Both the position numbers and the translations under genes were made by a program. From the sequence record PP047754: a stretch of DNA of 64,000 nt; one strand, written 5' to 3'. Origin of the DNA: Escherichia phage KEP4. The notes below the pieces were generated by a model. It was not told the origin of the DNA. It made no database searches and worked only from the letters and a program-made list of their open reading frames with translations. Shown here piece by piece: positions 43,327-45,021 of this stretch; the first letter of the stretch is position 1; each line of letters opens with the position of its first letter.

Positions 43327-43896
43327 TCAGCCTTTGAAGTTAATCGGAGTCTGGACACCAGAGTCAAATGCGGCCTGGGTACGGGTGTCACTCACCACCT
43401 GACATGTCTTGTCAAGATCGATACGCGGATATCCAAAGATTCCTGCTATCAGAGAACCAGGGAACTGGCCAAGTTTAGTTTCATAGATCGCACATGCGTC
43501 CAATTTTTTAGTTTGGCTAATGCGGAATTCATCCCGACCTGAGCTGATAACAACCTGAATCTCTTTGTACAAAGATGAATCAAACTGAATATTCTGTTCC
43601 TGAATCCATTGCATTACTGCTTTGGAACCGTCTGCACCATAACGGCCTTGGAAAGTATCTTTGATCACTTCCTTCAAACCGTTTTTGTACATGTCAGGAA
43701 TCTGCGCCGTCTCCTGAACTTTGAGCGTGTAGTTGCTCAGGTGGTTTTCAGAATCTTTGTTGAACTTTTTGACCTGTTGTTCAATGCGGTTGAAATCATT
43801 GAAATAGCTAACCACACTGCCAATCCCAATTACAGCAAATGCTAGAATTGCCAACCCAACGATCCAACCAATTGAAATACCTTTACGTTGTGACAT
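43327..43896 (-). CDS. LemA-family membrane protein
   Basis: N-terminal TM helix then helical LemA-like domain; 189 aa. Confidence 0.55.
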   Translation of the reverse strand: MSQRKGISIGWIVGLAILAFAVIGIGSVVSYFNDFNRIEQQVKKFNKDSENHLSNYTLKVQETAQIPDMYKNGLKEVIKDTFQGRYGADGSKAVMQWIQEQNIQFDSSLYKEIQVVISSGRDEFRISQTKKLDACAIYETKLGQFPGSLIAGIFGYPRIDLDKTCQVVSDTRTQAAFDSGVQTPINFKG

Positions 43897-43911
43897 CTTT
43901 ACTTCCTCTTG

Positions 43912-45021
43912 TTAAAACAAACGTTTGTAAGTGCGACCATTGTACTGCATGCGGCCTAATATGAAAACTGCGGTAAATGGGATACATCCAAACAACACGA
44001 CGATAATCACTTCCCAAGTTTTAAGATCTCGCCATTTCAGATATTCCATTTCCTTCATCTCGACTCGGTTGTATCCCTTACTGATATTGACCGCAACTTC
44101 TTGGAACACGGATATGCCCATTGGTTTCCCAGTCAATGAAAGTCCGTTACGAGAATGGAGTTCCATGTTGTTCATGCCGTCGGCAAATGACGTAGACTTA
44201 CCCCAATTAATTTTCATATCCTTTGAAATATCGGTGACTACAATAACATCGTTCTTTTTACCGCCAGACCATGCATATAGAAGTCCCTGAAAATATTCAA
44301 CAGGCTGGCCAGAAGTCACAACCCAAACGATATTAACCTGACGTGAAGCACCTAATGTTTTCAGAGTATTGTTCAGATAATCATTCCAGTAATCAACAGG
44401 AATGTCCATCCCTGACATATTCAGAACACGAGTTACTCGGTAATAATCATACACCCTCGGATATGAAGGGATATGCTCTTTGAACTTCTCGGCGAATTGC
44501 TGGTCAGATTTAGAGAATAATGAATCTTTGTTGCCCAGCACATAATTCATATATGAATGTTCACGTGCCGCAGGTTCCCCGATTTTAACTTGTGCCCAAC
44601 GCGGAGGCTCTGTAGTACCCTGACGATCAATACGGTCAATGCTCAGATCACCGACGGTTGTTAATACGTCCCAATCAACGTCATAAGAGTGCTCATAGCA
44701 TGTGCTGCAATGACGCGTTTGTGTACAAGATCGGTTATTTCCTGAACCAGAGCAAGATGTTGTGTAATAACACATACATTCATAAGAATGTTCACAACCC
44801 ACCTTATTCCGTTGCTTATCAGTTACATATCCATTCAGGATTTCCACGTCCCCAGAACTACCAAGGGAGAAAGCAGCATATAATCCCGACTGGATAAGGC
44901 AAGACAATACGATAACAATGGCCGTGGCGATCAAAGTCTCCTTTGGCTCATGGGTCTTGCGGTGATATATTATAAACAAGATGGCCAAAATTACAGGAAC
45001 CACAAACAGAAGGTAAATCAT
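43912..45021 (-). CDS. membrane protein with N- and C-terminal TM helices and Cys-rich core (369 aa)
   Basis: TM at both ends; CEHSYECMCYY..SC..C cluster. Confidence 0.55.
   Translation of the reverse strand: MIYLLFVVPVILAILFIIYHRKTHEPKETLIATAIVIVLSCLIQSGLYAAFSLGSSGDVEILNGYVTDKQRNKVGCEHSYECMCYYTTSCSGSGNNRSCTQTRHCSTCYEHSYDVDWDVLTTVGDLSIDRIDRQGTTEPPRWAQVKIGEPAAREHSYMNYVLGNKDSLFSKSDQQFAEKFKEHIPSYPRVYDYYRVTRVLNMSGMDIPVDYWNDYLNNTLKTLGASRQVNIVWVVTSGQPVEYFQGLLYAWSGGKKNDVIVVTDISKDMKINWGKSTSFADGMNNMELHSRNGLSLTGKPMGISVFQEVAVNISKGYNRVEMKEMEYLKWRDLKTWEVIIVVLFGCIPFTAVFILGRMQYNGRTYKRLF

What the first reader, a model, noticed from the sequence alone, without database searches (positions are those of the whole stretch)
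43327..45021. LemA-family protein paired with a Cys-rich double-TM membrane protein
A LemA-like protein followed by a 369-aa protein with TM helices at both ends and a Cys-rich core. Membrane pairs in early phage regions are candidates for superinfection exclusion, lysis timing or envelope-stress manipulation; a LemA pair is not part of the classical T4 gene set.
Basis: inference. Interest (0 to 1): 0.45.

Follow-up and report, generated by a model that had tools for sequence, protein, structure and literature searches.

The report
Phage LemA–TPM inner-membrane gene pair
Two adjacent membrane-protein genes in this Salmonella/E. coli phage are a very diverged copy of a widespread bacterial gene pair (LemA plus a TPM-domain protein) whose function is unknown; the pair travels as a unit through hundreds of large phages, probably acts on the host cell envelope during infection, and is not a virion component as databases label it.

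Summary

LemA and TPM genes are neighbours in bacteria (4 of 6 sampled loci, plus E. coli), so this is a phage version of a cellular module. The pair is adjacent in every phage lineage checked except Lak megaphages: about 490 phage records, 16 of 16 evaluable loci fetched through the TPM gene alone, and with the order reversed in one Tenacibaculum phage. It is accessory in ICP1 (8 of 82 isolates).

Topology signals and correlated cysteines place both ectodomains in the periplasm. The "virion structural protein" label is unsupported: two purified-virion proteomes did not list either protein.

Function is untested. My best inference is an envelope-maintenance or envelope-modulation complex. Superinfection exclusion and counter-defence remain open.

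The parts
43912..45021 (-). 369-aa membrane protein (GG32 gp174, CBA120 orf253, Vi01_203). Layout: TM1 1-19, TM2 29-47, β-rich Cys/His domain about 55-205 (7 Cys in 76-108; H78 and H111), TPM-fold domain about 206-330, TM3 338-356, basic C-terminal tail.
43327..43896 (-). 189-aa LemA-like protein (GG32 gp173, CBA120 orf254, Vi01_204). Layout: short basic N-terminus, one TM helix (about 7-29), helical ectodomain, and a C135/C165 pair.
   Evidence: ORF. PHROG 1383 at 8.4e-88. AF2 model pLDDT 86.5. hhalign against genuine LemA: probability 96.9%, E=1.5e-10, 139 columns. Best PDB profile hit is 2ETD LemA, E=0.0085. C135 and C165 are both present in 28, both absent in 23, and singly present in 1 of 52 sequences.
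43897..43911 (-). 15-nt intergenic spacer with a Shine-Dalgarno-like AAGAGGAAG ahead of the 189-aa start codon.
   Evidence: Sequence read directly.
45846..45881 (-). Terminator-like hairpin (16-pair stem followed by a T-run) marking the upstream edge of the six-gene unit that contains the pair.
   Evidence: A terminator is annotated at the equivalent position in LIMEstone1.
42856..42883 (-). Terminator-like hairpin (12-pair stem followed by a T-run) marking the downstream edge of the unit.
   Evidence: A terminator is annotated at the equivalent position in LIMEstone1.

Best explanation
IDENTITY (well supported). The two genes encode a phage-adapted, highly diverged version of the cellular LemA + TPM-domain membrane pair.
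- The 369-aa protein spans the inner membrane three times. Between TM2 and TM3 it presents a periplasmic ectodomain of about 285 aa: a family-specific, disulfide-stapled β domain with a conserved Cys/His site, followed by a TPM-fold domain.
- The 189-aa protein is a type-II anchored LemA-like helical protein whose body also faces the periplasm.
- They are co-transcribed, with tightly spaced or overlapping reading frames, and are inherited and exchanged between phages as a two-gene cassette. This implies that they work together, most simply as a complex.

FUNCTION (inferred, not shown). The pair works like its cellular counterpart. TPM domains are described as adapter or chaperone modules for membrane complexes, and cellular lemA and TPM genes respond to envelope stress. 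I therefore read the pair as an accessory module that preserves or re-tunes the host inner membrane and envelope during the long infection cycle of large phages. The conserved β/Cys-His domain would be the part that recognises a conserved envelope target.
For: Domain identity:
- LemA: hhalign probability 96.9%, E=1.5e-10; 2ETD is the top PDB profile hit; a bacterial LemA HMM directly hits LemA-like partners at E down to 1.7e-6.

Cellular precedent:
- A TPM gene is adjacent to LemA in 4 of 6 sampled bacterial loci from four phyla.
- E. coli has LemA→TPM→TPM, present in 1455 of 5426 complete genomes.

Linkage:
- Genus counts for the two proteins are near-identical across about 490 phage records, and the genes are adjacent in all 16 records that appear in both tblastn tables.
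- The pair is adjacent in five further lineages whose flanking genes are unrelated.
- 16 of 16 evaluable loci retrieved through the TPM gene alone have the LemA-like gene next to it.
- Gene order is reversed in phage PTm1 but the pair is kept.
- The cassette is shared at about 71% nucleotide identity between ICP1 and an Aeromonas phage.

Periplasmic topology:
- K/R-rich C-terminal tail, mean 3.6 across the family.
- All ectodomain Cys lie in one block, with correlated losses C84/C105 and C90/C99.
- LemA-like C135/C165 co-occur.
- One bacterial LemA (Paraburkholderia) has a lipobox-like VSGC (alignment).

Function:
- The literature describes TPM as a chaperone or adapter and a PspA partner (PMC11237479; PMC13456599).
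- lemA and a TPM gene are co-induced with an ECF sigma factor under membrane stress in F. columnare (PMC13236525).
- The pair is dispensable in ICP1, carried by 8 of 82 isolates, which fits an accessory fitness role.
Against: - No experiment or expression data exist for any phage copy.
- The function of cellular LemA is itself unknown, so 'works like LemA-TPM' transfers little mechanism.
- Neither protein reaches Pfam thresholds. The TPM assignment is at fold level only: hhalign probabilities are 7-12%, E 0.002-0.005.
- The physical interaction of the two proteins is inferred from linkage only.
- The most conserved part, the β/Cys-His domain, has no counterpart in the cellular pair, so the phage module may do something the cellular one does not.
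- Lak megaphages have the LemA-like gene with no recognisable partner nearby.
Confidence: 0.45

Rival explanations
1. Superinfection exclusion. The periplasm-facing complex blocks DNA injection or cell-wall penetration by secondary phages, as T4 Imm and Sp do.
For: Inner-membrane location with large periplasmic domains. The pair sits among non-structural genes next to rIIA/B. It is accessory and horizontally exchanged in ICP1, a pattern typical of conflict genes.
Against: The ectodomain is unusually conserved: mean column identity is 0.63 in the β/Cys domain across phages of Salmonella, Vibrio, Acinetobacter, Xanthomonas and Sinorhizobium. Known exclusion proteins are small, lineage-specific and fast-evolving (general knowledge). 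Homology to a cellular housekeeping or stress pair does not suggest an anti-phage role. PADLOC gives only a marginal partial hit.
Confidence: 0.2
2. Counter-defence. The complex protects the inner membrane against host abortive-infection systems that kill by membrane depolarisation or that sense envelope perturbation. This is comparable in logic to rIIA/B against RexAB.
For: The pair lies about 2 kb upstream of rIIA/rIIB on the same strand. It is accessory in ICP1, whose variable loci are, from my general knowledge, often anti-defence genes. It is restricted to large phages with many auxiliary genes. CBB has TelA nearby.
Against: No link to any defined defence system. Co-location with rII is seen only in Ackermannviridae. 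Nothing in the sequences indicates an inhibitor.
Confidence: 0.15
3. Lysis or lysis-timing factor (holin, antiholin, or a regulator of lysis inhibition).
For: The Vi01 record tags the 369-aa gene 'host lysis protein'. No holin had been identified in CBA120, ViI or AG3 (PMC3184105). Three of 68 members give weak Pfam hits to a holin family through their TM segments.
Against: The architecture is unlike a holin: 369 aa with a folded periplasmic domain of about 285 aa. No endolysin, spanin or holin is annotated within about 3 kb in any of the seven lineages inspected. The pair is dispensable in ICP1, which lyses without it. The 'host lysis' tag carries no evidence.
Confidence: 0.08
4. Virion structural protein, as annotated in RefSeq and PHROG 1383 (and as 'major capsid protein' in some records).
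For: RefSeq and PHROG labels. The CBA120 paper says ViI particle proteomics guided its 'structural' annotations.
Against: The protein has an N-terminal TM anchor and LemA homology. The gene lies outside the structural modules in every lineage checked. It was not listed in CsCl-purified Sajous1 virions, where the pair is gp96/97, nor in LIMEstone1 virions, where it is ORF194/195. The Erwinia 'structural' source used crude lysates and its table does not list gp46/47. ICP1 makes virions without it. I could not read the ViI proteome paper.
Confidence: 0.03

Closest known systems
Bacterial LemA family (Pfam PF04011; structure 2ETD, Thermotoga TM0961) with its neighbouring TPM-domain protein, e.g. 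the E. coli LemA–YgcG-like cluster
   Same: Same size (about 190 aa). Same plan: N-terminal TM helix followed by a helical body ending in an 'FP…G(F/Y)' motif. hhalign probability 96.9%. Encoded next to a membrane-anchored TPM-domain protein. The Bacteroides locus even has the order TPM→LemA.
   Different: Below the Pfam threshold. About 25 residues shorter in the middle, with its own invariant motif GRYGxDGS…QWIQE. The partner is not a signal-peptide TPM protein with a Gly-rich tail. Instead it is a three-TM protein with an extra β/Cys-His domain. Cellular loci often carry two TPM genes; the phage has one.
TPM domain proteins (Pfam PF04536: TLP18.3, Psb32, MOLO-1, BA41/BA42, YdjH, AscF)
   Different: Sequence similarity is marginal: Pfam best E=1.8e-4 in 15 of 68 members, hhalign probability 7-12%. 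The domain is fused behind a 150-aa β/Cys domain not seen in known TPM proteins. Conservation of the metal or phosphatase residues was not assessed.
T4 Imm and Sp (superinfection exclusion) and rIIA/rIIB (membrane-associated, anti-Rex)
   Same: Phage-encoded inner-membrane proteins from the non-structural part of the genome. The pair lies just upstream of rIIA/B in this window.
   Different: No sequence or fold relationship was found. Imm and Sp are small single proteins (general knowledge), whereas this is a two-protein module with cellular homologues and large folded periplasmic domains.

Membership tests
LemA family (Pfam PF04011) | Scores above the Pfam gathering threshold (26.2 bits) for PF04011 | tested here: not met
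   No hit at E<=1 for the window protein. Only 3 of 52 family members hit LemA, best E=0.0016, all below threshold.
LemA family (Pfam PF04011) | Detectable homology to genuine LemA proteins by profile methods | tested here: met
   hhalign A1 against six Pfam-confirmed LemA proteins: probability 96.9%, E=1.5e-10, 139 columns. Profile against the PDB: best hit 2ETD LemA, E=0.0085, two collinear stretches. A bacterial LemA HMM hits six LemA-like partners at E 1.7e-6 to 1.5e-4.
LemA family (Pfam PF04011) | About 190 aa, with a single N-terminal TM helix followed by an all-helical body | tested here: met
   189 aa. TM about 7-29. Helices 9-64, 68-82, 87-100, 107-143 and shorter ones.
LemA family (Pfam PF04011) | Three-dimensional similarity to the LemA crystal structure 2ETD | tested here: inconclusive
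LemA–TPM gene pair (cellular) | LemA gene adjacent to and co-oriented with a gene for a membrane-anchored TPM-domain protein | tested here: met
   Window: 15-nt gap, same strand. The cellular pairing was verified in 4 of 6 sampled loci and in E. coli.
TPM domain (Pfam PF04536) | Scores above the Pfam gathering threshold (22.1 bits) for PF04536 | tested here: not met
   No hit for the window protein. 15 of 68 family members give weak hits, best E=1.8e-4. hhalign probability 7% and 12%.
TPM domain (Pfam PF04536) | TPM α-β-α sandwich fold | tested here: met
TPM domain (Pfam PF04536) | Metal-binding or phosphatase active-site residues as in TLP18.3 or BA42 | not tested
The literature notes that these sites are not conserved across TPM proteins anyway (PMC13456599).
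Phage holins | Small (<150 aa) membrane protein with little extramembrane mass, encoded with an endolysin or spanin | tested here: not met
   369 aa with a folded ectodomain of about 285 aa. No lysis genes are annotated within about 3 kb in seven lineages.
Virion structural proteins (PHROG 1383 label) | Reproducible detection in purified virions | tested here: not met
   Absent from the published virion proteomes of Sajous1 (CsCl-purified) and LIMEstone1. The ViI proteome paper could not be read.

The most novel reading that the evidence does not exclude
The phage pair is a periplasmic sensor/effector complex whose family-specific β domain is stapled by disulfides C84-C105 and C90-C99 and carries a conserved H78/C108/H111 metal or catalytic site. 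In this reading the domain binds or modifies a universal envelope component (lipid II, peptidoglycan, or an inner-membrane machine) to protect the infected cell from membrane-targeting abortive-infection defences or from secondary phages. Because natural ICP1 isolates with and without the cassette exist, the pair would give the first genetically tractable handle on what the very widespread, functionally orphan LemA family does.
Probability: 0.15. Interest if true: 0.75.

Novelty: new variant of a known kind. Interest (0 to 1): 0.5.

Why it matters
LemA (PF04011) and many TPM-domain proteins are among the commonest bacterial membrane proteins without a known function.

This work shows that a diverged LemA–TPM pair is a conserved, horizontally mobile cassette in hundreds of large phages. 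These include Ackermannviridae used in biocontrol, ICP1 of cholera, T5-like phages and many jumbo phages. Three things follow:
1. It corrects a widely propagated misannotation ("virion structural protein", "major capsid protein").
2. It defines a new periplasmic Cys/His domain family of 575 clusters.
3. It points to easy experiments. ICP1 isolates that naturally have or lack the cassette, and Kuttervirus knock-outs, could reveal what this module does for phages and, by extension, for bacteria.

If the function proves to be envelope protection or counter-defence, it adds a new class of phage auxiliary genes acting from the periplasmic face of the inner membrane.

Tried and rejected
- Pfam, NCBIfam and PADLOC scans of the two proteins gave nothing significant. 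The PADLOC LeoBC hit (E=1e-4, partial) was treated as TM or coiled-coil noise.
- Full-length and domain-only hhalign of the 369-aa family against cellular TPM partners stayed weak, so I claim the TPM fold and not Pfam membership.
- The 369-aa profile against PDB sequences gave only a spurious LolA hit.
- I looked for a third conserved gene. The upstream neighbours in ICP1, CBB, Acinetobacter phage and phiAS5 are unrelated: an Rv2179c-like exonuclease, a poly(A) polymerase head domain, or nothing. Rejected.
- Literature searches for phage LemA found nothing relevant. The Ackermannviridae review does not mention lysis or membrane proteins. The ViI proteome paper is not held. The ICP1 transcriptome paper cannot inform timing, because the reference ICP1 lacks the pair.
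- The sigma-70-like promoter scan found fewer sites than in shuffled sequence (9 against 12.7), so no promoter is claimed.
- The prophage status of the Achromobacter and Variovorax loci remained undecided.

Full report
**What is there.** The window is a Kuttervirus (Ackermannviridae) genome segment. Bases 43000-45500 are 100% identical to Salmonella phages GG32, STP07 and SFP10, and 226 phage records match at the DNA level. The two ORFs of the finding are real and lie on the minus strand. The 369-aa ORF (45021..43912; GG32 gp174, CBA120 orf253, Vi01_203) is transcribed first. After a 15-nt spacer carrying AAGAGGAAG comes the 189-aa ORF (43896..43327; gp173, orf254, Vi01_204). The start of the 369-aa ORF overlaps the stop of the upstream 128-aa ORF. 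Two strong terminator-like hairpins on the minus strand (45881-45846 and 42883-42856) bracket a compact six-gene unit containing the pair. LIMEstone1 has terminators annotated at the equivalent positions. Nearby genes on the same strand are an amino-acid:DNA transferase (46111-47346, Pfam 2.8e-61) and rIIA (38453-41194). The neighbourhood is therefore non-structural, though I found no expression data.

The β/Cys region is the most conserved part of the protein, with mean column identity 0.63 against 0.45 for the TPM part and 0.23-0.35 for the TM helices. Searched alone against 1.84 billion representative proteins, it finds 575 clusters. In full-length hits it always lies at about residues 55-200 of a protein of roughly 350-390 aa. 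That is a single, fixed architecture with no assigned fold.

**Topology (inferred).** The C-terminal tail is K/R-rich across the family (mean 3.6), and the TM1-TM2 loop is short and basic. By the positive-inside rule this places residues 55-337 in the periplasm. All ectodomain Cys lie in residues 70-115, and 67 of 68 members have none elsewhere. Their losses are correlated. C84 and C105 are lost together in 7 sequences, and C90 and C99 in 4. H78, C108 and H111 are lost together in the 3 GAP32-like sequences. C76 and C82 are invariant. The pairs 84+105 and 90+99 both sum to 189, which is the register expected for a β-hairpin formed by model strands 79-91 and 98-109. I read this as disulfides C84-C105 and C90-C99, perhaps C76-C82 as well, leaving C108, H78 and H111 as a candidate metal or catalytic site. 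In the LemA-like protein, C135 and C165 are both present in 28, both absent in 23, and singly present in 1 of 52 sequences. That again suggests a disulfide, and so a periplasmic body. Shared ancestry could inflate this signal. One bacterial LemA (Paraburkholderia) has a lipobox-like VSGC, which fits an extracytoplasmic LemA body.

**The pair is a unit.**
- tblastn finds the two proteins in 501 and 486 phage records, with almost identical genus counts: Salmonella 166/168, Escherichia 62/62, Klebsiella 54/55, Erwinia 29/29, Aeromonas 25/26, Acinetobacter 23/23, Serratia 22/22, Vibrio 22/22, Dickeya 19/19. In every record listed in both tables the genes are adjacent and ordered TPM-like then LemA-like.
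- Annotated regions from ICP1 (Mohonavirus), CBB (Mimasvirus), pVp-1 (Demerecviridae), an Acinetobacter Saclayvirus, phiAS5 (Straboviridae) and Deimos-Minion (Agricanvirus) show the same pair among unrelated neighbours. There is no third conserved gene.
- A scan of about 185,000 species genomes using only the 369-aa family returned 17 loci, mostly MAG contigs plus Achromobacter and Variovorax isolates. In 16 of 16 evaluable loci a LemA-like ORF follows immediately on the same strand.
- In Tenacibaculum phage PTm1 the order is reversed but both genes are present.
- Lak megaphages have the LemA-like gene with no recognisable partner within 3 kb.
- In ICP1 the pair is accessory. Eight of 82 records (DRC 2017 isolates) carry it, next to a resolvase-like gene, while the flanking genes are in all 82. 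Its DNA is about 71% identical to that of an Aeromonas phage. The cassette is therefore mobile between phages and dispensable for ICP1 growth.

**Cellular counterpart.** Of six bacterial LemA loci sampled from five phyla, four have an adjacent Pfam-confirmed TPM gene: Bacteroides (order TPM→LemA), Legionella, Paraburkholderia and Bifidobacterium. The other two have DUF3137 or HtpX. E. coli has LemA→TPM→TPM, present in 1455 of 5426 complete genomes. The phage pair is far too diverged to be a recent capture from such hosts.

According to the literature, TPM domains are adapter or chaperone-like modules for membrane complexes. Examples are PSII repair, a respiratory supercomplex subunit and the PspA partner YdjH, and some show weak phosphatase activity (PMC11237479; PMC13456599). 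In F. columnare, lemA and a TPM gene are induced together with an ECF sigma factor when signal-peptide clearance fails (PMC13236525). I found no paper on a phage LemA/TPM pair.

**The 'virion structural' label.** RefSeq and PHROG call the LemA-like protein a virion structural protein, and some records even call it 'major capsid protein'. In the CsCl-purified Sajous1 virion proteome the pair (gp96/gp97) is not among the proteins listed. In LIMEstone1 the pair (ORF194/195) is not in the MS-confirmed list. The Erwinia annotation chain leads to MS of crude lysates, whose table does not list gp46/47. I could not read the ViI proteome. Given also the TM anchor, the LemA homology, the position outside structural modules and the dispensability in ICP1, I consider the label unsupported.

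**Mechanism.**
- Shown: gene structure, homology and fold, linkage, mobility.
- Inferred: periplasmic topology, disulfides, complex formation.
- Speculative: function.

My best reading (0.45, which includes the well-supported identity part) is an accessory periplasm-facing inner-membrane complex. It would maintain or re-tune the host envelope during infection, working like the cellular LemA-TPM module, with the phage-specific β/Cys-His domain as the target-recognition part. Rivals are superinfection exclusion (0.2), counter-defence against membrane-acting abortive-infection systems (0.15), lysis timing (0.08) and virion component (0.03). The high conservation of the ectodomain across phages of very different hosts argues for a conserved envelope target and against a phage-specific exclusion function. 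The folded 285-aa ectodomain, the absence of neighbouring lysis genes and the dispensability in ICP1 argue against a holin-type role.

**Verdict.** Novelty: a new variant of a known kind, namely a phage-specific, architecture-extended LemA–TPM pair that the literature I could search does not describe. Interest is moderate (0.5). No mechanism is shown, but the family is large, it is misannotated, and it offers a tractable way into the function of the orphan LemA family.

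Noticed in passing
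L009:2450-4877 (ICP1 isolate MW794144) versus L037 (reference ICP1 NC_015157, ORF36-40): Within ICP1 the pair is accessory. Eight of 82 records (DRC 2017 isolates) carry it next to a resolvase-like gene. The reference genome has three small ORFs (ORF37-39) in that slot. The cassette DNA is about 71% identical to Aeromonas phage vB_AdhM_TS9.
   Followed up: partly
L039:2902-4622 (Tenacibaculum phage PTm1): The pair is present in reversed gene order: LemA-like first, then a 365-aa protein with the same three TM positions and 8 Cys (E=1.7e-23 to the family HMM).
   Followed up: yes
L038:2836-3381 (Prevotella megaphage Lak-B1): A LemA-like gene (E=7e-34 to the phage family HMM) with no recognisable TPM-like partner within 3 kb under genetic codes 11, 15 or 4. 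This is the only lineage seen where the pair rule fails.
   Followed up: partly
L035:2629-5301 (E. coli chromosome deposited as a 'plasmid' record, NZ_CP141089): Host-type LemA→TPM→TPM cluster beside a radical-SAM gene. The LemA and first TPM gene (L035:2629-4138) are found in 1455 of 5426 complete E. coli genomes, so the cluster is variable within the species.
   Followed up: partly
window 45907-46110 (-): A 55-aa ORF with a hydrophobic N-terminal segment (45907-46074) is preceded by a T4-late-promoter-like TATAAATA (46110-46103) and followed by the strongest terminator hairpin in the region (45881-45846). The same layout is annotated in LIMEstone1 (ORF191). The motif count in the window (2) is no more than chance.
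   Followed up: no
window 46111-47346 (-): A 411-aa protein matching Pfam ADDT (amino acid:DNA transferase) at 2.8e-61. This is the thymidine-hypermodification enzyme family known from ViI-like phages (my general knowledge), yet deposited records annotate it as hypothetical.
   Followed up: no
window 47343-47528 (-) and 47897-48100 (-): Two further small hydrophobic ORFs (61 and 67 aa) in the same gene string. The first is annotated 'membrane protein' in GG32. The region is rich in small membrane proteins of unknown role.
   Followed up: no
Database records MH523359 (LPST94), Pectobacterium phage DU_PP_V (P0029), FQ312032 (Vi01_203): Propagated misannotations. The LemA-like protein is called 'major capsid protein' in two records and 'virion structural protein' in RefSeq. 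The 369-aa gene carries the gene name 'host lysis protein' in Vi01 with no stated evidence.
   Followed up: partly
L010:102-1244 (Pectobacterium phage CBB) and the Sajous1 proteome table (PMC10892097): Other envelope-stress-type genes occur in phages that carry the pair. A TelA homologue (Pfam 4e-50) lies two genes upstream of the pair in CBB. An SPFH/band-7 lipoprotein (gp200) is listed in the Sajous1 virion MS.
   Followed up: no
L020 (Achromobacter anxifer) and L024 (Variovorax sp. WDL1): The phage-type pair also occurs in contigs of two cultured bacteria. In Achromobacter it lies beside a RecA gene and an MscS-like channel gene, among ORFs with no Pfam match. Whether these are prophages, phage-plasmids or contaminating phage DNA was not resolved.
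   Followed up: partly
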